A stretch of 64,000 bases of DNA, from the sequence record NC_101835.1, one strand, 5' to 3'. This DNA comes from a phage. Shown here piece by piece: positions 2,194 through 46,056 of this stretch; the first letter of the stretch is position 1; each line of letters starts with the position of its first letter. Made by a program: the position numbers and the translations under genes. Under the pieces are notes generated by a model that saw only the letters and a list, made by a program, of their open reading frames with translations, was not told where the DNA came from and made no database searches.

Positions 2194-3171
2194 TGTAGAA
2201 GTTTCTTATCGAAATATAGCGACCCTGTAACAGGCGAGGAGAAATACCTTGGCAGATTTAACTTAGGCGTTGTTAGCATTAACCTGCCAATGATTGCGGC
2301 AAAAGCTAAAACGGAAGGTGTTGATTTCTTTGCAGTTCTTGACGAATACCTGGATCTTGCATACGAGGCTCACCTTGTAAGGGTTAATCGTCTAAAAGGG
2401 GCAAAGGCAGGGCAGAACCCTATCATGTGGTGTGAAGGCGCTCTTGCTCGCCTGGATCCTGAAGAGAGTATTGATAAACTCTTCTATGACGGGTACGCTT
2501 CCATCAGTATTGGGTATATTGGTGTGTATGAAACCTGTCAGATTTTGGGCAGAGAGGGTGACAAGGCTTTAGCTCTTGGAATCCTTCAGCACATGAGAGA
2601 TGCTTGTGAGAGATACAAGAAGGAAAGTAGACTAGCGTTTAGCTTGTACGGCACCCCTTCTGAGAGTCTATGCTATAAAGCTGCAACCTGTCTGGATCGT
2701 GAATATCCTGAAGTGTTGAAGCACGAGCATGAATATCTCACCAACAGTTTCCATCAGCCAGTATGGATCAATAGCTCTCCTTTTGATAAGTGGAAGTATG
2801 AGGAAGGTTTTGCTATGATCTCCTCTGGTGGCAACATCGGATACGTAGAGACACCAAATCTGAAAAACAACTTAGATGCTTTGGAAGCTCTTGTTGATTT
2901 CGGATATAAACACATTATGTATTTTGGTATCAACCAGCCTGTGGATAAATGTCTTAAGTGTGGTTTCTCTGGTGAGTTCAGTGCAACAGCTAAAGGGTTC
3001 TGCTGCCCTGCGTGCGGATGCCACGATGAACAATATATCTCAGTGATCCGAAGAGTGTCTGGCTATCTCTCCAGCCCGAACAGTAGACCGTATAACACAG
3101 GTAAACAAGCAGAGGTTATCGAACGTGTTAAACATGTTGGGAATGTAGACTGGTGTCCGTTGAGTAAATAA
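2194..3171 (+). CDS. nrdD: NrdD, exon 3 (glycyl-radical domain)
   Basis: GRFNLGVVSINLP, C-terminal zinc ribbon CLKCG...CPACGC, glycyl radical motif RRVSGYL. Confidence 0.85.
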   Translation, partial: CRSFLSKYSDPVTGEEKYLGRFNLGVVSINLPMIAAKAKTEGVDFFAVLDEYLDLAYEAHLVRVNRLKGAKAGQNPIMWCEGALARLDPEESIDKLFYDGYASISIGYIGVYETCQILGREGDKALALGILQHMRDACERYKKESRLAFSLYGTPSESLCYKAATCLDREYPEVLKHEHEYLTNSFHQPVWINSSPFDKWKYEEGFAMISSGGNIGYVETPNLKNNLDALEALVDFGYKHIMYFGINQPVDKCLKCGFSGEFSATAKGFCCPACGCHDEQYISVIRRVSGYLSSPNSRPYNTGKQAEVIERVKHVGNVDWCPLSK

Positions 3172-24287: not shown

Positions 24288-24560
24288 TTACTTATGGCGG
24301 CAGAATTCAAGCGTTTTTAATTGATAATCTTCCTCAGCTTGGAGTACGACCGCCTCGATCATTTCGTTGGCATTGTTAAAGCCATAACCTTTAGCGAACT
24401 CATCCGCGCCACCTTCGTGATCATGTTCTGCGTTCATCGCTTCCACAAAATGGAATTCCAAATTGTTGAGGTAGGGGCTTGATGTTCCGTCCTCTTTTTC
24501 GATGAGATCCCAAATAGCATTAAAACGTGATTCGACTTCTTGATTAATCCAGCTTGACAT
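24288..24560 (-). CDS. hypothetical acidic protein
   Basis: Leader hairpin GGGCA-aaag-TGCCC then RBS. Confidence 0.55.
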   Translation of the reverse strand: MSSWINQEVESRFNAIWDLIEKEDGTSSPYLNNLEFHFVEAMNAEHDHEGGADEFAKGYGFNNANEMIEAVVLQAEEDYQLKTLEFCRHK

Positions 24561-24668
24561 AGTGTTTTCCTCTCTCCTGGTTGTTGTGTGGGCACTTTTG
24601 CCCCTTCAAGATAAATGTTACCCCACCCCATGGCAGATGTCAACGGTTTTTATAGTTCTTATATGACA

Positions 24669-24711
24669 GGCAGGCCCGGTGATTGTCTCCCCCCGTCGCC
24701 AGGTGCCTGCC
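24669..24711 (-). other. conserved 43-nt stem-loop element, copy 1
   Basis: GGCAGGC...GCCTGCC imperfect hairpin just after a TTGCAA-16-TATACT promoter; related copies at 33658 and 33809. Confidence 0.5.
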
Positions 24712-24771
24712 GTGAAACAAGTATAACAAAAAACAGGACCATTGCAAGCCCTGTTTTGTAGTTTATAAATA

Positions 24772-24963
24772 TTATATTTTTTCGCCTATGTAGTCCGGTC
24801 GGTTTTTCTCTGTCATGCGCTTTAGCAATTCTTGCATGTTGCTTATGGCTTGTAGTGTATCCCCTTCCAGGCTTGAATCGACATAATCAGGATCGTCTAT
24901 GACCTTTCTATGATTATGATAACGCAGTACCGCCAATACCTTTCTGACTTGTTCGATATTCAT
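24772..24963 (-). CDS. hypothetical protein
   Basis: Track ORF. Confidence 0.5.
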   Translation of the reverse strand: MNIEQVRKVLAVLRYHNHRKVIDDPDYVDSSLEGDTLQAISNMQELLKRMTEKNRPDYIGEKI

Positions 24964-24975
24964 TTTTACCGCTCT

Positions 24976-25110
24976 TTAAAACAAGGTGCCAACCGTTTCC
25001 AATAGATCACTGACTGCCAGGACAATACCGATCAGCACATATCTAACCATAAGGGGAAAGAGCGCCAATATTGCCACCACAATCCCCAAGGTGATAATTA
25101 TCTTTCTCAT
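24976..25110 (-). CDS. small membrane peptide (about 44 aa)
   Basis: MRKIIITLGIVVAILALFPL...; below track cut-off. Confidence 0.3.
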   Translation of the reverse strand: MRKIIITLGIVVAILALFPLMVRYVLIGIVLAVSDLLETVGTLF

Positions 25111-25112
25111 GG

Positions 25113-25406
25113 TTAACGGTTCACGTAAGTTTTCCCGTTCACGGTTATGGGCAGATCCTCCAGGTCTGGATCTTCCTTAAGGTCGCGAGCAAGCTCACCG
25201 CACCGGATACCCTCGAATCCGTAGTACTCTGTTGTGCCGTCCTTAAAAGTTTTAGCGGCAAGGCATAAGCGATAAGTAACCCCGATTTGATTGACGGCAT
25301 GAATATCCGTTAGATTAACCTCTTTTGCCAGCTCTTTAGCCATTACAGGCGCATTAAGTCCAACAACCAGGGCAACCACTGCGATCATCTTTTTCATTGT
25401 GTCCAT
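25113..25406 (-). CDS. secreted protein (signal peptide)
   Basis: MKKMIAVVALVVGLNAPVMA signal-peptide-like N-terminus. Confidence 0.55.
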   Translation of the reverse strand: MDTMKKMIAVVALVVGLNAPVMAKELAKEVNLTDIHAVNQIGVTYRLCLAAKTFKDGTTEYYGFEGIRCGELARDLKEDPDLEDLPITVNGKTYVNR

Positions 25407-25488
25407 CCTCTTTCTGCTACGTTTAAGGCGGCGGTAACCGCCTGTTTATGCTTTGTTGGTTAATTTTCGGGTATAGGTATAAATTAAA

Positions 25489-25704
25489 CTATGCTGTACG
25501 CTCAACTATAACAACGGCTTGAGGGATCTCACCTTCAACCACTATCAAGGCTTTTTTCTGCGTGATAGATATCTTTACCCGCTTCAGCGTGGCGGTAAAA
25601 TCTTTCATTTCGTCACGTGGTGTTTTAGTGCAATACCAGATCTCAGGCTTGCCGATCTGTAAGTTGCGTAAAAATTCTGTTTTGCCTGTTTTGTTAGTGA
25701 TCAT
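25489..25704 (-). CDS. hypothetical protein
   Basis: Track ORF. Confidence 0.45.
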   Translation of the reverse strand: MITNKTGKTEFLRNLQIGKPEIWYCTKTPRDEMKDFTATLKRVKISITQKKALIVVEGEIPQAVVIVERTA

Positions 25705-25713
25705 TTGGCAACC

Positions 25714-25818
25714 TCACCCGATACCGTTGGAAGACAAGATCGCATTAGCCATGGTTGCAATCAGGCCAATACCCAGGGCAATAACCAAGATCACTGCATC
25801 GATTAATTTCTGTTTCAT
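25714..25818 (-). CDS. small membrane peptide (34 aa)
   Basis: MKQKLIDAVILVIALGIGLIATMANAILSSNGIG; leader hairpin 25854-25873. Confidence 0.3.
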   Translation of the reverse strand: MKQKLIDAVILVIALGIGLIATMANAILSSNGIG

Positions 25819-25895
25819 GGTGTTTATTCTCTTCTGTTAGTAACCTTATTCATGGGGCCGCTACCACAGCCCCAAGGTAAGGCAGCTATGTGCTT

Positions 25896-26141
25896 TTAGT
25901 GTTTCATTCCAACCATCGCGGCACGGATCGCCGTAGTGCTGTACTTGAAGCCGTCCGGGGTCTTATCTTGTCCGGTTAGCTCCAGAAAAAGCATCATATC
26001 CCGCGCCGCATCATTACGATTAGCATTGGCGTTAATAAAGCCTTGGGCCAACCGGTACAATGACTCATCGTTATTAATCCAAAGGCTTACATTCCAATGA
26101 GTTTTGTTTTTGTAACCGTTATAACCTTTATTGCTTTTCAT
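25896..26141 (-). CDS. hypothetical protein
   Basis: Leader hairpin GGTGG...CCACC then AAGAGG RBS. Confidence 0.55.
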   Translation of the reverse strand: MKSNKGYNGYKNKTHWNVSLWINNDESLYRLAQGFINANANRNDAARDMMLFLELTGQDKTPDGFKYSTTAIRAAMVGMKH

Positions 26142-26232
26142 GGTGTTTACCTCTTCTTTGTTCCAGGTGGCGGATCATTCTACCACCTTATGTATTATGC
26201 TTTGTTAGATGGTTGTTTGTTGTCAAACTATT

Positions 26233-26412
26233 TTACCGATAATCATCATATGCTTTATTTACCTGGCGAATATAACATTCAAAAGCCAAATCAATAGATT
26301 TATATTCACGGATATACTCACCATAGGAAACCACATACATTTCTATAGCTTCCTCATATGCGAGGAGAATAGAATCTAAGCCTACGATCTCAGTCTTTGC
26401 AATAATAGCCAT
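26233..26412 (-). CDS. hypothetical protein (59 aa)
   Basis: MAIIAKTEIVGLDSILLAYEEAIEMYV...; just below track cut-off. Confidence 0.35.
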   Translation of the reverse strand: MAIIAKTEIVGLDSILLAYEEAIEMYVVSYGEYIREYKSIDLAFECYIRQVNKAYDDYR

Positions 26413-26487
26413 GATTTTTTATCCTCTTTGTGGTTGGTGGGGTTCGTTGCCCCTTTGATTTATATATTACAGTCTTATATGGTCATG

Positions 26488-26721
26488 TCAACTATTTTCA
26501 AAAAATTTTTCTGCTGTGATATTCTTCCCGGTAGGGTTCGCTACTTTCAAAATTTTATCATGCACTGGACGCCCAAAAGAATAAGCGCCGTACACAGTAA
26601 ACCAATAATCGCCGTCAGGTTGTACTATTACTGCCGCATATGGTACGCCTTTTTCGTTTTTGCTGACAAAATAGATCACGTTGCCATTAATAGCCTCGGC
26701 GCGTTTAATTTGTTCCATCAT
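26488..26721 (-). CDS. hypothetical protein
   Basis: Track ORF. Confidence 0.5.
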   Translation of the reverse strand: MMEQIKRAEAINGNVIYFVSKNEKGVPYAAVIVQPDGDYWFTVYGAYSFGRPVHDKILKVANPTGKNITAEKFFENS

Positions 26722-26777
26722 GATGATTTGCCTCTCTTTATTTTCATAATTGGGGGGCCTTTTCGGCCCCGCCAGGT

Positions 26778-27062
26778 TTATTTATTGATAGCGTGCAGCG
26801 GGAAAGGTACGCCAGGTTGATAGATAACCTTTACAACCTCATCAGGACAAAAGAAGTTGCAGAACTCACCGCAATAGGCCTCATCCTCTTTCAACTCTTC
26901 ATCAACATACTCAAAAAAGTAGTCGATGCTTGGATAATCTTGACCAGGGTTATAATCAACCATAGTGAGGACCAGTTCAAGATCATTGCGGATGATATGC
27001 ATACCAGCTTTTAAATACTTCGCTTCCATTTTTACTACATCGCCAGCGGTAACAATAGCCAT
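26778..27062 (-). CDS. hypothetical protein
   Basis: Internal ATG (MAIVTAGD) with GGAG RBS; track ORF extends to 27128. Confidence 0.5.
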   Translation of the reverse strand: MAIVTAGDVVKMEAKYLKAGMHIIRNDLELVLTMVDYNPGQDYPSIDYFFEYVDEELKEDEAYCGEFCNFFCPDEVVKVIYQPGVPFPLHAINK

Positions 27063-27293
27063 GGTTTTAACTCCTGTTTCTGTTAATGATTGGAGGCATA
27101 ACCCCCCTCGACAACTCTTATTATCCATATTGTAGGGCTTGATGCAAGTACTTCTTTAAAAAAAAAAATTTTTTAAGTGCCTTGGAGGCCGCTGTAACGC
27201 CAAAATAATAAAGGCCATGCAACCGCATAGCCTTTATGTGATTATATCGCTGCAGGCCCTGCTAGGGGCCTTATTTTGCATCATTTGCCGGAA

Positions 27294-27602
27294 CTATACA
27301 GAGAAAACATCGTTCACAATAGCGATCACAATGCCGCCCACCTTGTCACGGTCAACAATGCACAAATCACCATAGATCATGTGGTAGTCTGGATGATCTT
27401 TCACGGAATAGTCAATGAGCGTTTTCTTGTCGTCCAGCTTTGTAACTTCCATTCTCATAACGATATGAGAATCATCAAAGGCATTATTCCGAAAAGTCAT
27501 AGCCTGACCACCAGGGCACCCAGTGATCTCCACTTCCACACCGTCTACGATCTGACCATCAAAGAAATAAAGATTATTAGCCAGGATAAACATGTTTATC
27601 AC
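27294..27602 (-). CDS. hypothetical protein
   Basis: Directly downstream of conserved 45-bp element copy 1; RBS AAGGAG. Confidence 0.55.
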   Translation of the reverse strand: MINMFILANNLYFFDGQIVDGVEVEITGCPGGQAMTFRNNAFDDSHIVMRMEVTKLDDKKTLIDYSVKDHPDYHMIYGDLCIVDRDKVGGIVIAIVNDVFSV

Positions 27603-27639
27603 TCCTTGTTAACTGCGTGTTATTTTACCACGATTAAAA

Positions 27640-27685
27640 TTTACTTTACTGATGGCCCTGGCGTCAAGGCCATCTAAAAATAAAT
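27640..27685 (-). promoter_or_regulatory. conserved 45-bp promoter/hairpin element, copy 1
   Basis: Minus strand TTTATTTTTAGATGGCC-TTGACGCCAG-GGCCATC...TAAATT: 7-bp stem flanking a -35-like TTGACG, then a -10-like hexamer. Confidence 0.45.
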
Positions 27686-27886
27686 TTACAGGCCTACAAT
27701 CTCTTTGATTCGTTTAACTGCTGCCTCAGCGCCTTGGGGGTAGAAATTATGGTAACCGATCACGCGAGTGATACTAATCGCAGTTTGATGATCTTCATAA
27801 TAGCCCTTGAAGATTTCTTGACCGTCAATCAGCACGGCAATTTTTTCTTCTTTTTTGAAGTTAATAACGCGGATATTGTTGCTCAT
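27686..27886 (-). CDS. hypothetical protein
   Basis: Leader hairpin GGGGA...TCCCC then AAGGAG RBS. Confidence 0.55.
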   Translation of the reverse strand: MSNNIRVINFKKEEKIAVLIDGQEIFKGYYEDHQTAISITRVIGYHNFYPQGAEAAVKRIKEIVGL

Positions 27887-28027
27887 TTTGTTTCTCCTTT
27901 CTGGTTTTTGTGTTGGTGGGGATTAGCTCCCCGTTGATTATTATTATCCATATTTCGGACCGGATTGCAACACCCCGGAAGAAAAATTTTTTGAAAAAGT
28001 TAGGCCCCCAGGGATCGGGGGCCGTTA

Positions 28028-28147
28028 TCAGTTACTTACAGCGATAAAATACATCCCTACGCCTAACAATATTTCAAGGGCGATGATCTCAAGCCATACC
28101 ATAACCCGGCGCACCTTATCGGTGCGGGGCTTATCCTTGGTTGTCAT
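28028..28147 (-). CDS. small membrane peptide (39 aa)
   Basis: MTTKDKPRTDKVRRVMVWLEIIALEILLGVGMYFIAVSN; below track cut-off. Confidence 0.3.
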   Translation of the reverse strand: MTTKDKPRTDKVRRVMVWLEIIALEILLGVGMYFIAVSN

Positions 28148-28407
28148 CGTCTCCCCCTTTCATCCTGGTAGTAGTGACGTGGTTTACAATGGCCCCCAGG
28201 AGTACCATCACCACGCACATCACAAGAAAAATTATCTCTGTCGTTGTTCGATCCATTGTTATAAAATTCCTTAAGATCAGGCCTGAAAATAAAGCGTTCG
28301 TTATTGAATCCATCACGCCAGGCGGCTGGCTTCAAATCTTCATCAAAGGGATTAATTAACGTGGTATTATTTAAACGGCTGGCCCACATATTTTCTATTC
28401 CTCTCAA
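28144..28407 (-). CDS. hypothetical protein (start uncertain)
   Basis: Track ORF; overlaps neighbouring ORF in another frame. Confidence 0.3.
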   Translation of the reverse strand: MRGIENMWASRLNNTTLINPFDEDLKPAAWRDGFNNERFIFRPDLKEFYNNGSNNDRDNFSCDVRGDGTPGGHCKPRHYYQDERGRR

Positions 28408-28738
28408 ATAGGCGATCCGCCTCAGTTAAACAAATCTCATGGGCGTGATCTCTGGTTTTAGCTTCATCGAAAACCTGTTGTGCAAGGCTGCAGCGTAGGG
28501 AGACTGGAAGATCACTATAATAGGCGTTGACAAATGTTTGCGCGTCATACAGGTCGGAAAATACTTTACCCTTTCTATTATCGCCTTTGTCAACAATTGC
28601 AAGGATAACAAGTACAATAGTTGCAACCACCCCCAGGAAAATAGATATAATAAACCATAAAAAGGCGGATCTACCCATCTTGCCAGCGATCCAGGCGTTA
28701 AACAAGGCAACTAATACGGCCAAAATAATAAATTCCAT
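28367..28738 (-). CDS. membrane protein (2 TM)
   Basis: Internal start MEFIILAVLVALF...; two hydrophobic helices. Confidence 0.5.
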   Translation of the reverse strand: MEFIILAVLVALFNAWIAGKMGRSAFLWFIISIFLGVVATIVLVILAIVDKGDNRKGKVFSDLYDAQTFVNAYYSDLPVSLRCSLAQQVFDEAKTRDHAHEICLTEADRLFERNRKYVGQPFK

Positions 28739-28802
28739 TCTATGTACCTCTTTTGCAGTTCTGTTTAACAATAAGGCGGCAAATATGCCGCCTGTTACCT
28801 GA

Positions 28803-29183
28803 TTAAAAATTATCGCCGTAAATCTTTCCGCTTTCTGCCCACACCACCACGCGGGGCATACTATCCCACACGTCTTGTTTTAGATTGAGCGCGTGCAATT
28901 CTTCGGTGGTGCCCATACCAGGCACGGGCTGATTGTATACTGCAAAACGACCACCCGCATAGTCATAGGCCAGAGTTAAATCACACTGGATCATCTTTTT
29001 GATCATGGCATTAAGCATGGCGTTAGCCGCATACTGATCACGTTTTAAAGGCAACTCTTTGATTAGTTTGCGATAGTTTTCAATGTGATCGCACACTGTT
29101 TCACGTGGAAGATCTTTCATATCCTCGCGAAAGGTAACCAGGTTAAACATGACGGTGTCAATAGCTTTAGTAGTGTTTTTCAT
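28803..29183 (-). CDS. hypothetical protein
   Basis: Internal ATG at 29183 preceded by AAGAGG and leader hairpin. Confidence 0.55.
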   Translation of the reverse strand: MKNTTKAIDTVMFNLVTFREDMKDLPRETVCDHIENYRKLIKELPLKRDQYAANAMLNAMIKKMIQCDLTLAYDYAGGRFAVYNQPVPGMGTTEELHALNLKQDVWDSMPRVVVWAESGKIYGDNF

Positions 29184-29207
29184 GATGTTTTCCTCTTTGT
29201 TTTGTGT

Positions 29208-29228
29208 GGGGGGCAAACGTCTTGCCCC
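29208..29228 (-). promoter_or_regulatory. 5' leader stem-loop (example of a recurring class)
   Basis: GGGGCAA-gacg-TTGCCCC about 8 nt after a TTGCAA-16-TATATT promoter and 25 nt before the ATG. Confidence 0.5.
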
Positions 29229-29273
29229 TTGAGTTTTAATATAGCAGGTTTTTAGATTATTGCAACACTTTAT

Positions 29274-29897
29274 TTATGAAAAACTCATCTCTCCATATTC
29301 ATCCACATCAAACCGCCAATCATTGGCCTCGATAAGGCCGATCAGGTTTTCGGTAGTAAATTGTTCAAGATAAGCTTGCTCCAGGTCTACGTAAACCTTG
29401 CGGGATAGTTCCCGTACGTTCTCGGTGATCAACTCTTCCAGCTCTTCAACCTTACTTTCTTGCTTGGCTGTCAGGTCTAGCCATGTAGTATCGATGTACC
29501 CGCTTACAGTGTTTTCGTGACTATAGCGGCTATATGGATCACGCTCAACACTTGCGGATAGCTCGCCATCGTGCATTGTGCCGAACAAGTGACGAATTGA
29601 GCGGAATTTAGTCAGAGACTTGACTTTACGCAAGAATTTTTCTAAATCCACGTTTTCCGCACTGATTGACGCGCCGTCGCCCTGGCACCAAAAGCCGGAC
29701 CAATGTACCTTGGTATCTTCAAGGCCATACTCTGGAAAGATATGTTCTTTATAGTCTTCAATTACACTTTCTGCAAAAAAGTTATCCCCGCTGTGTTCTT
29801 CTCTTTCGCGGACCATTTCAATAGCTTTTTCTTTTTGTTCATCGGTCAGCACGTCGAAAGATAAATTGTAACCTGTGGTAATGTTAACGGTGGTCAT
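29274..29897 (-). CDS. hypothetical protein (207 aa)
   Basis: Leader hairpin GGCGGGAA...TTCCCGCC at about 29925-29945. Confidence 0.55.
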   Translation of the reverse strand: MTTVNITTGYNLSFDVLTDEQKEKAIEMVREREEHSGDNFFAESVIEDYKEHIFPEYGLEDTKVHWSGFWCQGDGASISAENVDLEKFLRKVKSLTKFRSIRHLFGTMHDGELSASVERDPYSRYSHENTVSGYIDTTWLDLTAKQESKVEELEELITENVRELSRKVYVDLEQAYLEQFTTENLIGLIEANDWRFDVDEYGEMSFS

Positions 29898-29971
29898 GAT
29901 ATTTTCTCCTATTTTCTTTGTTAGTGGCGGGAAGTTTTCCCGCCTGTGTGTTTAAGTATACTTATCGAGAT

Positions 29972-30232
29972 TTACTTGTCAACACTATTTTTTAAATTAT
30001 TGTGGCGCAAAATGCTTAAAATCTCTTCAACGTCATCAACACGGCGGCAATTTTTAAACGCTACCAATTGCCCCATGATTTTAATCACTGGACGGCCTTG
30101 CCAGTGCCCCTGGAGAAAGCGCGCCTTGACTTTATCGGTGGAACTATCACGCCACCAAATGGCCTTGTTATTGCAGTAGTAAAAATTATTCAGGACAACA
30201 TCAACTTTATCAAAATTTTTTAATTTACGCAT
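29972..30232 (-). CDS. hypothetical protein
   Basis: Track ORF. Confidence 0.5.
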   Translation of the reverse strand: MRKLKNFDKVDVVLNNFYYCNNKAIWWRDSSTDKVKARFLQGHWQGRPVIKIMGQLVAFKNCRRVDDVEEILSILRHNNLKNSVDK

Positions 30233-30478
30233 GGCGTTTACTCCTTCCTTCTTGCTTTGATGTGGTTAGTATATCCGGACTATTCCAAGGTGTCAAGCTT
30301 TAAATAAAATCACTGTCAATGATATTTTTTAACACCATAAAACGGCCCTGGGTGATGTTTTCAGGTTAATAAAGGGGATTGCATAGGTAGGGGCTTTTGT
30401 GGCGTTTGTGGGGCCAACCAGGGGCGCTATTCGTAGGATAGAAATAAAAAACCCCGCACAATGGCGGGGCGTTGGTTG

Positions 30479-30676
30479 CTATTTGTCTTTGTGGCGGTAT
30501 CGTTCCGCTTGTCGTTCACGTTCCAAAAGCAGGCTGGGTAATTTGCGATCATAGTGATTTCGCCAGATCTTCCCAAATCTTTTCGGCTTATTCAGTTTAT
30601 TGTTACGCTGGCGTCGTTCCGGCAGCTCTTCGGAATCATGAGATCGCTTTACAATCTTCTCAAAATTAATCTTCAT
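30479..30676 (-). CDS. small basic protein
   Basis: Internal start MKINFEK; Arg/Lys-rich. Confidence 0.45.
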   Translation of the reverse strand: MKINFEKIVKRSHDSEELPERRQRNNKLNKPKRFGKIWRNHYDRKLPSLLLERERQAERYRHKDK

Positions 30677-31019
30677 ATATTCCCCCCTTGCTAACTTCAA
30701 TATTGGCCTGAATAGCCCGGATACGGCGCTTTATAACCTCCTGATCCTTGCAATCATATCCCCAAAAGTCTACGATTTTTGCGCCTCCAGCCTTTAGGCG
30801 GTATAGTGTTTCTTGCATCTTGTAAGCCGGGATCGGTCGCGGTGTTACCTGGTCGCCCTTCTCATTCTTGTACTTGATAATGTAGTCTTCATTGTCGTTG
30901 AATACCCAAAATGGGTATTCTGTGAGCGCGTTGCTCTCTTTTTCGTTTTTAGATTGGATCTTGTTTACAATTAAAGCCGTAGCAATAGCGCCAATAATAA
31001 AACTTGCCCCGCTGATCAT
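30666..31019 (-). CDS. membrane-anchored protein
   Basis: Internal start MISGASFIIGAIATALIV (TM). Confidence 0.5.
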   Translation of the reverse strand: MISGASFIIGAIATALIVNKIQSKNEKESNALTEYPFWVFNDNEDYIIKYKNEKGDQVTPRPIPAYKMQETLYRLKAGGAKIVDFWGYDCKDQEVIKRRIRAIQANIEVSKGGIYED

Positions 31020-31094
31020 GTACTTTCTCCTTTCATTGTGTTGATAAACTATCTTTATAGATGGCCCTGCTACCAGGACCACCGAAAAAACAGC

Positions 31095-31340
31095 TTATTT
31101 GACGATACCGACAAAACAGATCCCGCCTTCCCCTATATAGGCAATATCGGTAATTTTATAATTTGTCAAGATCCGCGTGTTCAGATCATTAATAAAATCG
31201 GTCATCGCGTTGGTGTGGTTGTCTTCCGTGTCTAAGGCATAATCCCAGGTGTAAACCTTTTTACGTCCGAAGCCTTTTACCATGATACGGGCGCTTTTGG
31301 TGTTGGTAGGGGCATAATATTTGGTGATTAGTGCTGCCAT
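31095..31340 (-). CDS. hypothetical protein
   Basis: Downstream of conserved 45-bp element copy 2; RBS GAGGAG. Confidence 0.55.
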   Translation of the reverse strand: MAALITKYYAPTNTKSARIMVKGFGRKKVYTWDYALDTEDNHTNAMTDFINDLNTRILTNYKITDIAYIGEGGICFVGIVK

Positions 31341-31382
31341 GGTTTTAACTCCTCTGAATTAGTTCAGTGTTAACAGTATAAA

Positions 31383-31427
31383 GTTTACTTTATTGATGGC
31401 CCTGAAGTCAAGGCCATCTAAAAATAA
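31383..31427 (-). promoter_or_regulatory. conserved 45-bp promoter/hairpin element, copy 2
   Basis: GTTTACTTTATTGATGGCCCTGAAGTCAAGGCCATCTAAAAATAA, near-identical to copy 3. Confidence 0.45.
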
Positions 31428-31429
31428 TC

Positions 31430-31771
31430 TTACTCGTTTTCTTCCAGCTCCGCAAGCTCTTCTTTTGCTTCTTCTAACTCTGTCTGTAGTTCCTGGTATT
31501 CTTCATCGTCCTCAATATCCAGGCTGTCGATGTAGTCGCTAAATCCGCAGCGGTAAGCGATAGGATCTAGCTCCTTGAGGATACGCGACGGAAGAAAAGA
31601 AATGTTTCCGATCATAATTTCGCCGTAGATCTCGTCTAACCATTCATCATAGTTTTCGTCGTACTTGTCCTCGTCGATTTCAAAGTTATCGATCTTGTTC
31701 TCAAGGTCTGCGATCTGTTTTTTCAGCGCGGCGATCTGCATAGCTTTTTCTGCGGCGGTCATAGTAGTCAT
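31430..31771 (-). CDS. hypothetical acidic coiled-coil protein
   Basis: Leader hairpin GGGAA-gtt-TTCCC then RBS. Confidence 0.55.
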   Translation of the reverse strand: MTTMTAAEKAMQIAALKKQIADLENKIDNFEIDEDKYDENYDEWLDEIYGEIMIGNISFLPSRILKELDPIAYRCGFSDYIDSLDIEDDEEYQELQTELEEAKEELAELEENE

Positions 31772-31850
31772 GGTGTTTTCTCCTTTTGTGTGCTCTGGGA
31801 AGTTTTCCCGTTTACGTGTTTAAGTATATCGATCTAAGTTAGTTTGTCAA

Positions 31851-31970
31851 TTAAAAATTTAAGAAAAATTTTGCAAAACTGTTAGCGCTACTCATTAACA
31901 TTTGCGCCAGGATGTAACCGACAACGCAAACGATAATAGTTACCTTTGTGTATTGGCGTGTAGTGCTCAT
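31851..31970 (-). CDS. small membrane peptide (39 aa)
   Basis: MSTTRQYTKVTIIVCVVGYILAQMLM...; follows element copy 3. Confidence 0.35.
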   Translation of the reverse strand: MSTTRQYTKVTIIVCVVGYILAQMLMSSANSFAKFFLNF

Positions 31971-32004
31971 CTTAAAGCCCCCTTTTTTCGCTTAGTTGAG
32001 ATTA

Positions 32005-32049
32005 GTTTACTTTATTGATGGCCCTGAAGTCAAGGCCATCTAAAAATAA
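32005..32049 (-). promoter_or_regulatory. conserved 45-bp promoter/hairpin element, copy 3
   Basis: Same sequence as copy 2; directly after the stop of 32052-32546. Confidence 0.45.
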
Positions 32050-32051
32050 AC

Positions 32052-32447
32052 TTAGTAAGTTTTCAGTACTTTACCGTCCAACCTGTCAAGCTGGATCTCG
32101 ATAGCTGCAGAAAACCTATTGTAAACCACATCGCCCATAGAATCCAACCAGTCTATGACATTATACACCTGCTCTTTATTCTTGCAAGTCCGGATCCGTT
32201 TCATTACGTAAGACGGATCAATATTAGTGCTCCCGTTGTTGTGGTCATGCGCCTGGCCTGCTGCACTGGTTATAGATTTTACAACCACCTGAAAGGGCTT
32301 TAAGGTGCCTTTTGCGTTCATCTCACGCGCTTTTGCGGCGCGGTTGTTATATGTTACACAACGGCGGCAAATGTTGACTAAATGCATGTCAATAATTTTT
32401 TCATCGTTTGCCAGTTCGTTCATGATGCGGCGTACGTTCTTATTCAT
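32052..32447 (-). CDS. hypothetical protein
   Basis: Internal start MNKNVRRIMNE after leader hairpin GGCGGGAA-aca-TTCCCGCC. Confidence 0.5.
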   Translation of the reverse strand: MNKNVRRIMNELANDEKIIDMHLVNICRRCVTYNNRAAKAREMNAKGTLKPFQVVVKSITSAAGQAHDHNNGSTNIDPSYVMKRIRTCKNKEQVYNVIDWLDSMGDVVYNRFSAAIEIQLDRLDGKVLKTY

Positions 32448-32530
32448 GATCTTTTTTCCTTTGTGCTGGCGGGAAACATTCCCGCCTTTTGTGTCTAGTT
32501 TACTTAAATTTTGCAGCGTGTCAATGATTT

Positions 32531-32929
32531 TTATTCGTGGGCGCATGTCACAATGTGCTTTTTATAGCCCAGGTGGTCAGCAAGTGCCGACAAAAACTCT
32601 TCTTCGTAGATCCAGCCGTCGGCAGTGATCCCCATAGCATTTAATGCGCTCTCAAGTGCTGCGTTAGCTTTATCGTAACCGTGACCGCTAGCCTTGCCGC
32701 CAGTATAACCGTACTTATTGTTCTTGTTGTCGTGAATCCAAAACACGCAGTAGTGAGTGTTACCACTGGCGGCGGCATAATACCGGATCTCAGCTACTTC
32801 GTGCAAATTATTGTCATCGTCCAGGCCCACCAGATTATAAGCCTTGTAAAATCCACGATCACGGCGGCAGTTCTTGACATCAGAAAAAGAAAAGTCGGCA
32901 TTATCAAAATTAAAGGTTGTGGTTTTCAT
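32531..32929 (-). CDS. hypothetical protein
   Basis: Track ORF; RBS AAGAGG. Confidence 0.55.
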   Translation of the reverse strand: MKTTTFNFDNADFSFSDVKNCRRDRGFYKAYNLVGLDDDNNLHEVAEIRYYAAASGNTHYCVFWIHDNKNNKYGYTGGKASGHGYDKANAALESALNAMGITADGWIYEEEFLSALADHLGYKKHIVTCAHE

Positions 32930-32993
32930 GATTTTATCCTCTTAGTGTCTTTTGTGATTTCAGTATATTTTGTGTCAGACTACATGTCAATAT

Positions 32994-33191
32994 TTATTTT
33001 TTATTAAACCAGTGGTTGATCTGACCTTTTGTCAGGGCGCAACGATTAAGCTGTTGCAGGGTATAGCTATGACCGCGACGAAATTTATAAAGGCCTTGCC
33101 CGTTGTTGATGGTTACATCCACCCGGCAAATCACTTGATTGGTGACCACCTGGCGAGTGTTGCGACGTACTTTAATTCCGTAGGCGTTCAT
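32994..33191 (-). CDS. small basic protein
   Basis: Internal start MNAYGIKVRRNTRQ; RBS AGAGAGGA. Confidence 0.45.
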   Translation of the reverse strand: MNAYGIKVRRNTRQVVTNQVICRVDVTINNGQGLYKFRRGHSYTLQQLNRCALTKGQINHWFNKK

Positions 33192-33277
33192 GATTTTTTT
33201 ATCCTCTCTGTTAATTGGTGTGGTGTTGTTCACCTTGCGAGGATAAGAATAACAAGAACTGTCCGAGCTGTCAACCA

Positions 33278-33454
33278 TTAGTTAAAATTATTTTTTGGGT
33301 AGAATTCTCCAGCCGCCGCCCCTGCCAGGTTAACCATCATTTTTTCGTACTCTTCTTTATGTTCCAACGCTCCCGCCATAGCCTTTTCAACCAGGGCGAT
33401 AGCCTCAGCGTCATTAATAGCTACATTTTCCAGGGGGATCATATTACCTTCCAT
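33278..33454 (-). CDS. hypothetical protein (58 aa)
   Basis: MEGNMIPLENVAINDAEAIALVEKAMAGALEHKEEYEKMM...; RBS GAGGAGG. Confidence 0.35.
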   Translation of the reverse strand: MEGNMIPLENVAINDAEAIALVEKAMAGALEHKEEYEKMMVNLAGAAAGEFYPKNNFN

Positions 33455-33657
33455 TTTTGTACCTCCTCTTCAATTGTTACCTATCCTATAGCATAGGCCC
33501 ACCAGGTTTACAAGCCTTCATTCTCCCCTACCTGGTCAGTTAGGTCCTGCCAGGCTGGCCCCGCCAGGTTGCAGCGGTTAGCGCATCAGGTTAGAAAAAT
33601 TTTTTGAAAAGTGTTGACAGCGGCCCCGCCAGGTGGCACAATATACCTATCGAAAGG

Positions 33658-33693
33658 ACGGCAGGCACTGGTGACGGGGGAGACAACCACCGG
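33658..33693 (+). other. conserved stem-loop element, copy 2
   Basis: GGCAGGCACTGGTGACGGGGGAGACAACCACCGGGG, homologous to the reverse complement of 24669-24711. Confidence 0.45.
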
Positions 33694-33808
33694 GGATGGG
33701 CGCTGCATAAAATGAGAACGATTATCATTATCATTTAAAAATTTATGCAAAAAATCCTTGCTTTCTTTGTCCTGTGTGATACTATAATAACAAGCCGGGG
33801 CAACAGGG

Positions 33809-33832
33809 GCCGGGAGACAATCACCGGGCCTG
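33809..33832 (+). other. conserved stem-loop element, partial copy 3
   Basis: CGGGAGACAATCACCGGGCCTGCC matches the 3' half of the 24669 element. Confidence 0.45.
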
Positions 33833-33949
33833 CCCGTTATTCTGCAAACGAGAATGATTATCATTCAAAATTCTAAATGAGAACTCCTCGCATTTAATAA
33901 ATTTAATTAGCACGCTAATTACCTACCGTGACAATTATATATAAAATAA

Positions 33950-34440
33950 TACCTCCTAAAATATTTCCATATACAAATTTTAAAAATCCATTTCTGAAAA
34001 CGAAAAATCGATTTCGTCCCCAAAAATTTCAGGTCGAGATCCGGAACGATTTCCAGAAAATCCGATTTAGAAAACGAAAAACAGATCGAGTACTGAGAAA
34101 TTTATCGAGAAAAATTTTCAGAAAATCCAAGCCATGAAATGAAAAGTAGATCGAGTACTGGAAAAATTGTACCGCAACCCACTGATAGTGATGGGTTTTC
34201 CGTCATAAATCACTAAGAGTGAGTGGAGAAAGGTATGGTGGAGAGGTGTGTATGTGTGGGAAATCTGTAATGGTGGCCTGAAATATGGTGCAAACGGCTA
34301 GATAGATTGGCACAATTTTCCGCGCCTGTGTTGAAAAAATCCATTTTAGTTTTCGATCCATTTTCTGATTTTCTAAGGATTTTAAAATATCCTGGTAGGT
34401 AAAATATCAAAAGGAGGAAATCCATTTTAGAAATCCCCCT
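33950..34440. repeat. AT-rich iteron region
   Basis: GAAAATCC(A/G)(A/T)TT five times, AGATCGAGTACTG twice (34083, 34148), palindrome TAATTAGC-ac-GCTAATTA near 33903. Confidence 0.55.
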
Positions 34441-34470
34441 TATACTTGATATGCCAGGAATTTTCAAGTA

Positions 34471-43356: not shown

Positions 43357-43632
43357 CAATAGTTCAGGTAGGTCGTTAAGCTACCCCGCACCATTACGTG
43401 CATAGCCATACGTTTTCACGTAGGATCGGACCATCTCATATTCCTATGATAAGCAACCACAGGAATCCTCCCATTTCGACCGCACTTGCTGGTCTACTTC
43501 CTTTCGGAATGGCCTCTGAGCGTTCGCTCTTTTGAGCGCTTCGTTGCGGATTACCTTGCCATAAGGTTTAGGCTTCCCGCAGTTAAAGAGGTTATTCGAC
43601 ATAGATTACTCTATGAAGCCACAATGTTATTT
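43357..43632 (-). mobile_element. group I intron in DNA polymerase gene, no ORF
   Basis: Exon 1 ends on U after ...IIYYH, intron ends on G before DE; splicing rebuilds the YYH|DE motif; 276 nt. Confidence 0.6.
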
Positions 43633-46056
43633 ATGGTAATAAATAATACGACGAACACCTTCATCGTACCACCCACGCTTCACCATTTGGTGGTGCATAA
43701 GTATCCCAACCAAGTCACACAGCGATGCACCACCATTCTGTTGATATGCATTAAGTAAAGAGTGTTTAGATCGGGTCCAGATGGCATGACCATCAAAAGA
43801 GTAGATAAACTTCTTACCCGTTGCTTCCCAGAATTTCTCCAGATCCTCTTTACGGCCCTTAAGACCAGGGTTGGCATCCCAAAGCGCATCGATTACCCTT
43901 TGTCCCAACTCTGGAGAGATGTCCAGCATATCTGCAACTTTATCTTTTTGTGCCCCGTACATAACCCCATACGTGATAGGTTTACCGTCGTTACGGGACA
44001 CCTCTCTACCTGCTACTTTTGTATATGCCTCAGCATTGTTTTGGTGTGCGTCCCCGTTACTTACAACATCGTAATACAGGCCGTTGTCGAACTCAAAGGC
44101 ACCCCAAGCCCCGATAAGCTGCTCTAAGTTGGACCCGTCAATACCGATCTCAAAGTATCCCGGAGGAACACCCCACAGACTACGCATCTCTTTACCCATA
44201 ACCACTTTAGGAGATGGTTTAGGCATGTTTGCACAAATACTGTGTTTCTGTCTGGAAGTGTTTGTTAATCCAGAGCTTTTAGCAGGAAGCTTATGGTCAA
44301 TCTTCAAACGTGGGTGATTAAGAAGACCAGTGTCAACCTTATCCTCCTTGATTGGATCAAGTACCGATCTGCGGTTTCGCAATGATAACCATAAGACGAT
44401 ATCTTTAGCCATCTCTCCGTTCAATTTTTCAAGATTCGGACACAGGTGTCCAAACGTATCTTTCAGTTGCGGAGAAGTAATAAGTGCCCTAGCTTTTCTA
44501 CGTATTTTCCCGAATACTTCCTTTTTAATCCTTTCGGAGTTAGGAAAGCTTCGGAACTTGTGCACTGTTGTCTGAAACTTAGCATCAGTTTTGTTCCAGA
44601 AGTTGATAATTAGGTCACAATACTCTGACTCTAAAAGCTCGTCCATGTATGCATATACTCGTGCATCAACATCTGCATCAGGTAGAGCTTTCTTCTTGCT
44701 GTCTTTAGTTACATCCTTAGTTCTCCACATTGTCGGAAGCCAACCAGCACTGATCAGGTATCGCTTAATGTCGTCCTGATTGCTGATTTTCATAGGTATC
44801 TTGCAGTCAGGCATTCGCTTCTGCTGCAGATCGCTTATTGCCTGATCCATCAGCTCTTTAGGCAAAGGTTGTGGTGTGGAGGTGCCCTTAATATAACCTC
44901 TCAAGAAATCAGCCATCTTGTCGGGGTCTTTGCAGCCCATCTCTTCACACCATTTTATCCCCATCTTACTGACATCTCCTGTGGAGGTAAATGCTCTCTT
45001 AGGCGGGGCTTTGAACTCTAGAGCGCTCATGTCTACAGGATAGCCAAGCTTATCTTTTAACCATTTCCAACCATTATTAGAGATTGTCCCGTCTTGGTTA
45101 AACGGCTTTTCAGGGAACTTGGGCCGCTGAGACATTGACAGCTCTTTTAAAGGCAGTTGTGGTTCAACACGATCAGCGATTTCTTTCATCCACGCATCGC
45201 AACGGTCACGTAAAGCAATAGCTCCATCTATGTCGAAGTATACACCCTGACGGGCCTGCAGCTCCATCAGGAAGTGCTGCAGCATGCCTCGACGTAATGC
45301 GTTCTTCCAGGTGATCTTCTTGAACCCTTTCGGCTTCTCTTTGGCAGGATCGTACATAAAGTTCTGCATGTCAGATTTGCCGTAGAATACACCTTTTGAT
45401 TCCGCTACCAGTTCTTTCCAGAGCAGCTCCTGGATGATAACGTCCTCAAATACACGATCCACATACTTCCACAACGGAAGATCGCGCCAGTCATCAATTT
45501 GAACTTTCTGGTTACCAAGGGCATAGCCCCATGCCATAAGGCCGTGGGGACCAACAGGCTGCATTTTCTTAGTAACCGGGTTGAATACAGCGTCCGGACA
45601 ACCTTTTGGTAAAGGGCGATCAGGCCACAAGATTCGGCTCATCGCCAACGTATCAAACAGGTTAACCTGGTGGTCGTTGATAGTCCCCATGCATTTAGGA
45701 TCACGGAACATATCAAAATGAATACCGGATAATCTTTCCATCAGCATAAAGTCATAACTGTAGCAGTTATGGCAGTTCAAAGCTGTTGGTGACCAGTCGG
45801 AATTGCCTGTAAGCCAACCTTCCAACTCCGAAAAATCTGCTATGCGAACTTCAAAACCTTTATAAAGAGTTTTCTTTGCCAGAATGAAGTTCTTAGCCTT
45901 TTCTATATCCTCCTCGGAGTAGTGTGTGCGGTCATTTAGAGGAAGGAACAGCATAAAACGGTTCTTATTCAGCTCTTTAAACAGGCCGCAGTGATAATAA
46001 AGATCTGGATCTTCCAAAAGCCCTGAGGCCTCCAGATCGAAGCACCAATTACTCAT
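43633..46056 (-). CDS. DNA polymerase A, exon 1 (3'-5' exonuclease and polymerase motifs A/B)
   Basis: Exo I FDLEASGL; motif B RNDGKPITYGVMYGAQ; upstream of motif C colinear with T7 gp5. Confidence 0.8.

What the first reader, a model, noticed from the sequence alone, without database searches (positions are those of the whole stretch)
24669..33832. Conserved 43-nt GGCAGGC...GCCTGCC stem-loop at three sites
The reverse complement of 24669-24711 (GGCAGGCACCTGGCGACGGGGGGAGACAATCACCGGGCCTGCC) is homologous to 33658-33693 on the plus strand and to 33809-33832 (3' half). Each can fold into an imperfect hairpin of about 12 bp with a purine-rich loop. Copy 1 sits just after a promoter -10 in the leader of gene 24288-24560. 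This could be an RNase processing site, a riboregulator or a protein-binding RNA.
Basis: seen in the sequence. Interest (0 to 1): 0.55.

Follow-up and report, generated by a model that had tools for sequence, protein, structure and literature searches.

The report
Conserved promoter-proximal phage leader RNA motif
The three GC-rich "stem-loops" are real copies of an apparently undescribed ~44-nt element that sits right after promoters in rV5-like coliphages and in unrelated metagenomic phages; it consists of a small hairpin followed by an almost invariant 12-base sequence, and it most likely acts in the nascent transcript, though its partner is unknown.

Summary
The window is an rV5-like (Vequintavirus) phage. 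The three copies are real: c1 24665-24709(-), c2 ~33660-33700(+), c3 33790-33838(+). They are the only three in the ~137-kb genome. The conserved feature is not the 43-nt hairpin. It is a short 5' hairpin (P1), directly followed by GAGACAAHCACC, then GGnnCnGCCYGY.

Each copy lies a few bases downstream of a sigma70-type promoter. c1's promoter is embedded in an intrinsic-terminator hairpin. c2 and c3 are orphans, antisense to all neighbouring genes, inside a 1-kb non-coding region.

The element also occurs in other Vequintavirinae (Seuna-, Certre- and Mydovirus) and in phAPEC8. Unrelated 42-47-kb and 215-kb metagenomic phages carry at least 6 copies per contig in a fixed cassette: terminator, -10 box, element. 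A covariance model built only from the metagenomic copies recovers exactly the window's three copies.

No Rfam family matches. It is not put, nut, ops, a RegB site or pseudo-ToxI. Pairing potential is conserved, but covariation support is weak.

Best guess (about 0.3): a co-transcriptional recognition or pause signal that modifies the elongation complex. The main rival is a trans-acting small RNA or decoy.

The parts
24665..24709 (-). Copy 1 (c1) of the element: P1 hairpin + core + 3' segment
   Evidence: CM R1, built from metagenomic phages only, scores 33.9 bits, E~1e-7. Sequence read.
24678..24689 (-). c1 invariant core GAGACAATCACC
   Evidence: Exact pattern match. Invariant in about 60 instances, apart from position 8, which is A, C or U and never G.
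24692..24703 (-). c1 P1 mini-hairpin CCUG-GCGA-CGGG, directly 5' of the core
   Evidence: Folding. The equivalent hairpin has other sequences in relatives: CUUG/CAGG, CACUA/UAGUG, CACCG/CGGUG, CGG/CCG.
24666..24710 (-). c1 long imperfect hairpin: outer stem GCAGGCA/UGCCUGU, a 2-nt bulge, and inner CCUGG/CCGGG. This competes with P1.
   Evidence: MFE -23.8 kcal/mol, z -2.4. In 12 rV5-like c1/c2 sequences, 81% of cells pair against 24-49% when slid, with one compensatory pair A-U<->G-C.
24720..24747 (-). Promoter of c1 (TTGCAA-16-TATACT, with TG)
   Evidence: Promoter scan. The same T-run + TTATAMT layout appears in relatives.
24730..24757 (-). Intrinsic-terminator-like hairpin of the upstream gene. 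It contains the -35 of the c1 promoter.
   Evidence: Terminator scan. The terminator-then-promoter layout is seen in 27 of 35 metagenomic instances.
24615..24643 (-). Second promoter-like site (TTGACA-17-TAACAT) between c1 and gene 24288-24560
   Evidence: It is analogous to the P2 promoter ~98 nt downstream of the element in the metagenomic cassette.
33614..33642 (+). Promoter of c2 (TTGACA-17-CACAAT, with TG)
33660..33700 (+). Copy 2 (c2): P1 CUG-GUGA-CGG (33668-33677) and core GAGACAACCACC (33680-33691). It is antisense to all neighbouring genes.
   Evidence: CM R1 scores 18.9 bits, E~8e-3 over 33668-33695. Gene orientation.
33758..33788 (+). Promoter of c3 (TTGCTT ... TGa-TACTAT / TATAAT)
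   Evidence: Read from the sequence. Orthologues have TTGACA-16-TATTAT. The consensus scan did not list it.
33790..33838 (+). Copy 3 (c3): P1 CCGG(33795-33798)/CCGG(33810-33813), core GAGACAATCACC (33814-33825), and 3' segment GGGCCUGCCCGU
   Evidence: CM R1 scores 29.1 bits, E~4e-6. L258 carries a compensatory CCAG/CUGG in P1.
33836..33858 (+). Second hairpin after c3 (GUUAUUCU / AGAAUGAU) followed by a U-rich tail. Its 3' strand is the first half of a Fur-box-like palindrome.
   Evidence: RNAfold. Equivalent pairings occur in phAPEC8, KpS8 and CR3, and with a different partner in L258.

Best explanation
What is shown. The three sites are members of a phage-specific family of promoter-proximal elements about 44 nt long. 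The layout is a short hairpin P1 beginning 3-5 nt after the inferred transcription start (c1, c3; ~10 nt in c2), immediately followed by a single-stranded, nearly invariant GAGACAAHCACC, then GGnnCnGCCYGY. Each is driven by its own sigma70-type promoter, which typically sits directly behind an intrinsic terminator.

What is inferred. The element probably works co-transcriptionally, as nascent RNA and/or as the exposed non-template strand of a paused complex. The P1 hairpin plus the 12-nt spacer would place RNA polymerase at CACC^G, which matches a hairpin-stabilised consensus pause (G at -10, C at -1, G at +1). There the invariant 12-mer would be read by a conserved component of the elongation machinery: RNAP itself, a Nus-type factor or S1. 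That would change the processivity or fate of transcripts started at these re-initiation promoters, in the manner of put, nut or ops.

In this window, c1 would mark the early transcript entering gene 24288-24560. c2 and c3 would mark two tandem antisense transcripts that run into the iteron-containing non-coding region.
For: Position and orientation are constant. The core lies 23-37 nt after a -10 box in all ~60 instances and is always in sense.

27 of 35 metagenomic instances have a terminator hairpin and T-run immediately upstream. About 24 of 35 have a second promoter at a near-constant ~89-99 nt downstream, and then a gene. This is a leader context rather than a free-standing gene.

The window's c1 has the same layout: terminator 24757-24730, promoter, element, second promoter, gene.

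The 12-mer is invariant across unrelated phages, apart from one position that is never G. No protein is shared between the phage groups except an HNH endonuclease. This points to a conserved host partner.

In 31 of 35 instances a G follows CACC, and the G at -10 is invariant.

The hairpin abuts the core in every type, with different stem sequences. The sense strand folds better than the antisense strand.

A CM built from other phages finds exactly the three copies.

Precedent: HK022 putL lies just downstream of PL and acts without a phage protein (PMC9378689).
Against: No pausing, antitermination or binding has been measured; the mechanism is entirely inferred.

Covariation for P1 and for the long hairpin is weak. 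Slid controls and shuffles partly reach the observed values.

At least 5-7 metagenomic instances are followed within 40-60 nt by a strong terminator and no ORF, including a convergent pair in L264. These look like stand-alone small RNAs, unless the terminators are regulated gates.

c2 and c3 have nothing obvious to express downstream on the + strand.

There is no sequence similarity to put, boxA or ops. No NusG, N, Q or RegB-like domain was found among 58 early-region ORFs.

A consensus pause does not by itself explain why 11 of 12 positions are invariant.
Confidence: 0.3

Rival explanations
1. Trans-acting small RNAs or decoys. Each promoter makes a short non-coding RNA, and the exposed 12-mer is its business end. 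It would be a sponge or decoy for a conserved host RNA-binding protein or defence effector or, less likely, a base-pairing seed.
For: Stand-alone units (promoter, element, strong terminator, no ORF) occur in L266, L274, L288, L269 and L280, and as a convergent pair in L264. The element is multi-copy, with at least 6 per contig. c2 and c3 are orphan, tandem and antisense in a non-coding region. There is precedent for an anti-defence ncRNA in an intergenic region of an rV5-like phage: pseudo-ToxI of phiTE (PMC3475682).
Against: About 70-80% of instances have no terminator before the next promoter and gene, and sit at a fixed distance from them. No consistent terminator hairpin precedes the U-run after the element. 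c1-c3 lack U-tracts and were not flagged as terminators. Position 8 is A, C or U, which does not fit pairing to one fixed target. No complementary site was found in the phage genome, and only 8-11 nt of imperfect, G-U-tolerant complementarity in the rrn operon.
Confidence: 0.25
2. An mRNA-fate element. The 5'-terminal hairpin would protect against 5'-end-dependent decay. The GGAG plus A/C-rich tract would bind S1 or the 30S subunit, or a phage endoribonuclease. The result would be a stabiliser, translational enhancer or processing site, which is the first reader's RNase idea.
For: P1 starts within about 3-5 nt of the predicted 5' end. The core begins with an invariant GGAG followed by an A/C-rich single strand. 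The T4 RegB/S1 target is likewise an 11-nt single-stranded GGAG + A-rich site (PMC1702504).
Against: In T4 RegB sites, C is almost completely excluded from the 7 nt after GGAG, whereas the core has invariant Cs there (PMC1702504). No RegB-like domain was found in 58 early ORFs. A generic stabiliser would not need 11 invariant bases across unrelated phages. No start codon follows at a usable distance. The stems are too short for RNase III.
Confidence: 0.15
3. A DNA-level site. The 12-mer would be a binding site on double-stranded DNA for a regulator or replication protein, or a G-rich R-loop/primer-forming sequence feeding a nearby origin. The hairpins would be incidental.
For: c2 and c3 point into a non-coding region with iterons carrying GATC, and are flanked by Fur-box-like palindromes. 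In Seunavirus-like phages c1 is also followed by Fur-box-like and iteron-like sequences. In the metagenomic cassette the element is followed by operator-like TGTAAC/ATAACA repeats. Sequence is conserved much more strongly than structure.
Against: The site is asymmetric and always co-oriented with an immediately upstream promoter. Its distance to the downstream promoter varies (31 to ~98 bp). The adjacent hairpin relies on G-U pairs and is strand-specific. At 6 or more copies every 1-3 kb there are too many for origins. No shared DNA-binding protein was found.
Confidence: 0.12
4. No specific function: a recently duplicated GC-rich palindromic repeat or terminator remnant, or a chance similarity.
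For: Individual fold z-scores for c2 and c3 are unremarkable. Covariation is not significant.
Against: No shuffle reached 3 matches. The element is conserved across genera of Vequintavirinae, Stephanstirmvirinae and unrelated metagenomic phages while the flanks diverge. An independent CM recovers the copies. The context is constant.
Confidence: 0.03

Closest known systems
HK022 put RNA (putL/putR), a cis-acting antiterminator RNA
   Same: It is encoded just downstream of an early promoter, acts in the nascent transcript, needs no phage protein, and is present in more than one copy per genome (PMC9378689).
   Different: put is ~70 nt with two long stem-loops and an RNA triplex. No sequence similarity exists to the HK022 put regions. 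Here the conserved feature is a 12-nt single strand beside a 4-6-bp hairpin. Activity is untested.
ops element / RfaH recruitment (GGCGGTAGnnTG)
   Same: It is a 12-nt, sequence-invariant leader element that contains consensus-pause determinants (G at -10, pyrimidine at -1, G at +1) and is read as single-stranded nucleic acid in a paused complex (own knowledge). In the metagenomic copies the 3' segment GGRGnAGCSUG even resembles ops.
   Different: The core sequence is unrelated to ops. The ops-like 3' segment lacks C3 and T6, and in the window reads GGGCCTGCCTGT. The ops pause is not hairpin-dependent. No RfaH-like protein is implicated.
nut / rrn antitermination leaders (boxB hairpin + boxA 12-mer + boxC)
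   Same: The order is the same as in rrn leaders: a small hairpin, often with a GNRA-type loop, then a conserved ~12-nt single strand, then a GU-rich segment. The rrn leader was verified.
   Different: There is no boxA consensus (GCUCUUUAACAA). Only the 8-mer AGACAAUC is shared with the rrn leader, and that lies outside boxA. No N-like protein was detected.
T4 RegB/S1 target site
   Same: It is an 11-nt single-stranded site that starts with GGAG and is followed by an A-rich tract in early-transcript leaders (PMC1702504).
   Different: C residues are excluded from the T4 site but invariant here. The degenerate T4 consensus contrasts with near-invariance here. No RegB homologue was found.
pseudo-ToxI ncRNA of rV5-like phage phiTE
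   Same: It is a non-coding RNA locus in an intergenic region of a Vequintavirinae phage with an anti-defence role (PMC3475682).
   Different: It sits at a different locus, next to tRNA genes and structural genes. It consists of tandem 36-37-nt ToxI-like repeats. Only the reverse complement of the core vaguely resembles the ToxI 5' end, on the wrong strand relative to the promoters.

Membership tests
Any Rfam 15 family | Covariance-model score at or above the gathering threshold, or at least E<=1 | tested here: not met
   window; phAPEC8, CR3, KpS8, Aeromonas phage; metagenomic phages. There is no hit on the element. Only sub-threshold noise, tRNAs and a group I intron appear elsewhere.
HK022 put RNA | Located just downstream of an early promoter | tested here: met
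   The core lies 23-37 nt after a -10 box.
HK022 put RNA | Sequence or structure homology to putL/putR (two ~30-nt stem-loops, ~70 nt) | tested here: not met
   no core-like sequence in the HK022 PL/PR regions. The fold here is one short hairpin plus a single strand.
HK022 put RNA | Suppresses termination and pausing through the RNAP beta' zinc-binding domain | not testable with these tools
   Requires in vitro transcription or genetics.
lambda-type nut site | boxA consensus CGCUCUUA next to a boxB hairpin bound by an N protein | tested here: not met
   No boxA-like sequence in or near the element. P1 loops are often GNRA-like but variable. No N-like family was found among 58 early ORFs.
ops / RfaH | 12-mer GGCGGTAGnnTG in the leader | tested here: not met
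   The core is GAGACAAHCACC. The ops-like GGGGTAGCGTG occurs only in some metagenomic copies.
ops / RfaH | Consensus pause (G-10, Y-1, G+1) at the element | tested here: inconclusive
   The sequence pattern is present (G invariant at -10, C at -1, G at +1 in 31 of 35). Pausing itself was not measured.
T4 RegB/S1 cleavage site | GGAG followed by a 7-nt A-rich tract almost devoid of C, with a RegB nuclease encoded | tested here: not met
   The core has invariant C at positions 6 and 10, counted from GGAG (PMC1702504 rule). No RegB domain was found; only the early region was scanned.
Type III antitoxin mimic (pseudo-ToxI) | Tandem ~36-nt repeats similar to ToxI, transcribed in the ToxI sense | tested here: not met
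   phiTE pseudo-ToxI is a different sequence at a different locus. The element is not tandemly repeated.
Intrinsic terminator | GC-rich hairpin immediately followed by a U-tract | tested here: not met
   flags the hairpin upstream of c1 (24757-24730) but none of c1, c2 or c3. The tails are GUCAUAUAAG, AUAAAAUG and GUUAUUCUGC.
RNA anti-CRISPR / solitary CRISPR repeat | Near-identity to a host CRISPR repeat (hairpin plus 8-nt handle) in the crRNA sense | not tested
   Only a comparison from memory with the E. coli I-E and I-F repeats was made. The resemblance (CUGGCG.CGGGG) is on the wrong strand. P1 is not sequence-conserved between copies.

The most novel reading that the evidence does not exclude
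The element is a new class of elongation-complex-modifying signal used by virulent phages. It is a minimal hairpin plus 12-mer, read as nascent RNA or non-template DNA, that reprogrammes host RNA polymerase or a universal Nus/S1-type factor without a dedicated phage protein. It is spread horizontally as a terminator-promoter-leader cassette between unrelated phages of Gamma- and probably Betaproteobacteria.
Probability: 0.2. Interest if true: 0.85.

Novelty: new variant of a known kind. Interest (0 to 1): 0.62.

Why it matters
Transcriptional control in rV5-like phages and their relatives is essentially uncharacterised. Only sigma70-like promoters and terminators have been catalogued (PMC7344957).

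A ~44-nt element that is nearly invariant across distinct phage lineages, always sits at the 5' end of transcripts started just behind terminators, and matches no curated RNA family gives a concrete, easily testable handle on how these phages steer host RNA polymerase, or which host RNA-binding factor they capture.

If it acts on the elongation complex, it would be only the second protein-independent phage antiterminator-type RNA after put. If it is a decoy, it would identify a conserved host target.

It would also be a compact, portable regulatory part.

Tried and rejected
- **Rfam:** searched at gathering and permissive thresholds on the window, relatives and metagenomic phages. Nothing was found.
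- **HK022 put:** fetched the PL/PR regions. No similarity.
- **Pseudo-ToxI:** the reverse complement of the core resembles the ToxI 5' end. However, phiTE's locus is elsewhere and differs, and the strand is wrong.
- **T4 RegB/S1 site:** the concept is similar, but the C-exclusion rule is violated.
- **rrn leader mimicry:** only AGACAATC is shared.
- **Pairing to rRNA or operon tRNAs:** the best run is 8-11 nt of imperfect complementarity.
- **E. coli chromosome homologue:** none by BLAST.
- **Bacterial genomes:** 7 chance-level hits.
- **Cognate protein shared between phage groups:** only an HNH endonuclease.
- **Known RNA-binding or antiterminator domains in 58 early ORFs:** none.
- **Small ORF within the element:** indels between copies are not multiples of three. 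ORF 33586-33864(-) is not conserved in relatives.
- **sigma70-dependent pause via GACAAT:** rejected, because the critical T is the variable position.
- **G-quadruplex:** the G-tracts are not conserved.
- **tRNA-Asp anticodon-arm resemblance (CCUGCCUGUCA):** noted from memory only, and not conserved in relatives.
- **Terminator at the U-run after the element:** no consistent hairpin.
- **First IMG/VR scans:** swamped by a coincidental match inside a lambdoid prophage gene and by random coding hits.
- **More distant relatives of the metagenomic phages (DUF932 neighbours):** they lack the element.
- **Literature string search for the core:** only unrelated primers.

Full report
**Context**

The window is about 96% identical to Escherichia phage JES2013, an rV5-like Vequintavirus. 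From about 19 kb to 64 kb, essentially all genes lie on the minus strand.

**The observation**

The shared 17-mer GGGAGACAAYCACCGGG occurs three times without mismatch: 24675-24691(-), 33678-33694(+) and 33812-33828(+). None of 100 shuffles reached three matches. A regex over the window plus the remaining 73 kb of the JES2013 genome found no other intergenic copy.

- c1 folds into a 12-13-bp imperfect hairpin (-23.8 kcal/mol, z -2.4).
- c3 is less remarkable (z -1.5).
- c2 is weak (z -1.0).

So the copies are real, but the 43-nt hairpin is not equally good in all three.

**Anatomy in the window**

c1 is sense to the genes. On the minus strand the order is:

1. an intrinsic-terminator-like hairpin (24757-24730);
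2. a promoter whose -35 lies in that hairpin (TTGCAA-16-TATACT, 24747-24720);
3. the element (24710-24666);
4. a second promoter-like site (TTGACA-17-TAACAT, 24643-24615);
5. gene 24288-24560.

c2 and c3 lie in a ~1-kb gap (33455-34470) without conserved ORFs. They are antisense to every neighbouring gene. Each sits behind its own promoter: TTGACA-17-CACAAT at 33614-33642, and TTGCTT...TATAAT at ~33758-33788. Each is followed by Fur-box-like palindromes. Further on lie iterons containing GATC.

**Relatives**

The element, rather than its flanks, is conserved in:

- phAPEC8 (Stephanstirmvirinae);
- Cronobacter phages CR3 and EspYZU08;
- Klebsiella phage KpS8;
- Salmonella phage SSBI34;
- Pectobacterium phage DU_PP_I.

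In all of them the c1 type is sense and the c3 type is antisense in a ~1-kb gap.

Pattern scans of IMG/VR and of metagenomes then revealed the same motif in unrelated phages. These are a family of 42-47-kb contigs (e.g. Ga0255090_1000022), a 215-kb contig, a 130-kb contig and a few small contigs, giving about 50 distinct true instances and at least 6 per contig. These phages have no nucleotide match in GenBank phages. With the rV5-like genome they share only an HNH endonuclease. Their DUF932 protein's closest named relative is from Ferrovum, a betaproteobacterium. More distant relatives of these phages lack the element.

A scan of one genome per bacterial species gave only chance-level hits, so the element appears confined to phage and metagenomic contigs.

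**What is actually conserved**

All instances share three parts:

1. A small hairpin P1 of 3-6 bp, with a loop of 4-11 nt that is often GNRA-like. Its 3' strand ends 0-3 nt before the core.
2. The core GAGACAAHCACC. It is invariant except position 8, which is A, U or C and never G, and is usually followed by G.
3. A 3' segment GGnnCnGCCYGY.

In the metagenomic phages the cassette is strikingly regular:

- terminator hairpin with a T-run, ending TTTTTTCATTTATAAT;
- 6 nt;
- the element;
- about 98 nt carrying TGTAAC/ATAACA repeats;
- a second promoter (TTTACA-17-TATAAT);
- the gene.

A covariance model built solely from 26 metagenomic instances recovers the following from 221 kb of test sequence: c1 (33.9 bits), c3 (29.1 bits) and c2 (18.9 bits) in the window, nothing else in that genome, and the copies of SSBI34, EspYZU08, DU_PP_I, CR3, KpS8, L258 and L058. 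This is an independent demonstration that the three sites belong to one cross-lineage family.

**RNA or DNA, and is there structure?**

Several points favour a sense-strand RNA, or single-stranded non-template DNA.

- The orientation relative to the upstream promoter is constant.
- P1 depends on G-U pairs. The 23 nt ending at the first base of the core fold to -4.1 kcal/mol on average in sense against -2.0 in antisense.
- P1 exists with different stems: CCUG/CGGG, CUUG/CAGG, CACUA/UAGUG, CACUA/UGGUG, CACCG/CGGUG, CGG/CCG, CCGG/CCGG and CCAG/CUGG.

Formal support is modest, however.

- In one register, two pairs carry compensatory changes (6 cells; 4 of 500 shuffles reach this), but a slid control scores similarly.
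- In the majority register the stem never covaries.
- For the long hairpin of rV5-like c1/c2, 81% of cells pair against 24-49% when slid. There is only one compensatory pair, and shuffles reach it.
- P1 hairpins are individually weak (about -4 kcal/mol, mean z -0.5).
- The outer stem is absent from the metagenomic copies.

I conclude that the sequence of the 12-mer, presented next to a small hairpin, is the functional core.

**Comparison with known systems**

| Candidate | Result |
|---|---|
| Rfam 15 families | No match, even at E<=1-10 |
| HK022 putL/putR | No similarity; different architecture |
| boxA, ops | Not present |
| rrn leader | Shares only AGACAATC |
| T4 RegB/S1 site | Conceptually close, but excludes C where the core has invariant C |
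| phiTE pseudo-ToxI | Lies at another locus |
| Known RNA-binding or antiterminator domain in 58 early ORFs | None |
| Literature search for the core sequence | Only unrelated primers |

**Mechanism**

I commit, with about 0.3 confidence, to a co-transcriptional signal.

- The element is made at the very start of transcripts initiated just behind terminators.
- P1 plus the 12-nt spacer places the polymerase at CACC^G. That position carries G at -10, C at -1 and G at +1, which is the consensus elemental pause (own knowledge). The hairpin is at the distance used by hairpin-stabilised pauses.
- An invariant 12-mer with one free base is what one expects for a single strand read by a protein surface, as with ops, boxA and NusA-KH ligands.
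- Cross-lineage invariance without a shared phage protein suggests a host partner.

The main rival (about 0.25) is a trans-acting small RNA or decoy. It is supported by stand-alone promoter-element-terminator units, including a convergent pair in L264, and by the orphan c2 and c3. Those units could also be terminator 'gates' of the lambda PR'-tR' kind, so they do not decide the matter. A stabiliser/processing role (0.15) and a DNA-level role (0.12) remain possible.

**Verdict**

This is a genuine, conserved and apparently undescribed phage element.

Noticed in passing
window 33714-33732, 33850-33868, 33875-33895: Fur-box-like palindromes. GAGAACGATTATCATTATC matches the E. coli Fur 19-mer consensus at 16/19 and GAGAATGATTATCATTCAA at 14/19 (consensus from own knowledge). 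They flank the c3 promoter. They are the most widely conserved piece of the gap, also present in phAPEC8, CR3, KpS8 and Aeromonas phage 2L372D, and after c1-type copies in SSBI34 and DU_PP_I. The Rfam PrrF model's Fur-box flank aligned weakly there.
   Followed up: partly
window ~33990-34420 (read on the minus strand); L123 2690-2800; L125 2650-2790: Arrays of short direct repeats, many containing GATC (cagtactcgatct..., aaatggatttt; CGATCGAGACC in CR3). They lie in the ~1-kb non-coding gap among early genes. This is a candidate replication origin or control region into which the c2 and c3 promoters fire.
   Followed up: no
L123 ~2290-2420, L122 ~2345-2470, L125 ~2280-2400: In CR3, phAPEC8 and KpS8, the position held by c2 in the window is occupied by a different conserved ~95-nt GC-rich RNA-like element behind a sigma70-like promoter (GACGCCACCCCACGGCGAAAAGGCGGGGCTAAC...GGAAGGTGGATCGCCGGTAG). 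It has an internal hairpin whose sequence differs between phages while staying paired. It has no Rfam hit.
   Followed up: partly
window 43407-43642 (-): Group I intron (Rfam RF00028, 64.7 bits, E 4e-14) on the minus strand, immediately downstream of the large ORF 43630-46056(-) and overlapping its 3' end.
   Followed up: no
window 33559-33573 and 33623-33637: Two copies of GGCCCCGCCAGGT. The reverse complement, ACCTGGCGGGGCC, resembles the 5' half (P1) of the element. One copy lies in the spacer of the c2 promoter. These may be degenerate inverted half-copies.
   Followed up: no
window 33586-33864 (-): A 92-aa ORF spans c2 and c3 on the opposite strand and is annotated as a hypothetical protein in several GenBank relatives. 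It is not conserved as an ORF in inoa, CR3 or KpS8 and is probably a mis-call over non-coding DNA.
   Followed up: partly
window 14-877, 1492-2043, 2164-3171: The ORF at 2164-3171 matches only the C-terminal part of anaerobic ribonucleotide reductase NrdD (Pfam positions 263-562). An HNH/NUMOD homing-endonuclease ORF (1492-2043) lies just upstream. This looks like a gene split by a homing endonuclease. The HNH protein is the only protein shared with the metagenomic phages.
   Followed up: partly
L266, L274, L264, L288 (metagenomic phages), intergenic cassettes: Between the element and the next promoter lie conserved operator-like repeats (AAATGTAAC, TGTAAA, ATAACATTC, ATAACAWTT) at fixed spacing. 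mRNA leaders from the second promoter start with AUCAAGACAAC, which partly resembles the core. In some copies the 3' segment reads GGGGTAGCGTG, close to ops GGCGGTAGCGTG.
   Followed up: partly
L264 1215-1400: Two element-bearing promoters face each other across a single bidirectional terminator hairpin (GCATCCTATAATTTATAGGATGC). They would give two convergent transcripts of about 70 nt.
   Followed up: no
L251, L252, L254-L257: The 90-aa protein encoded downstream of c1 (24288-24560) has ~80% identical homologues in 33-56-kb prophage-like contigs that lack the element. The element is therefore not tied to that gene.
   Followed up: partly
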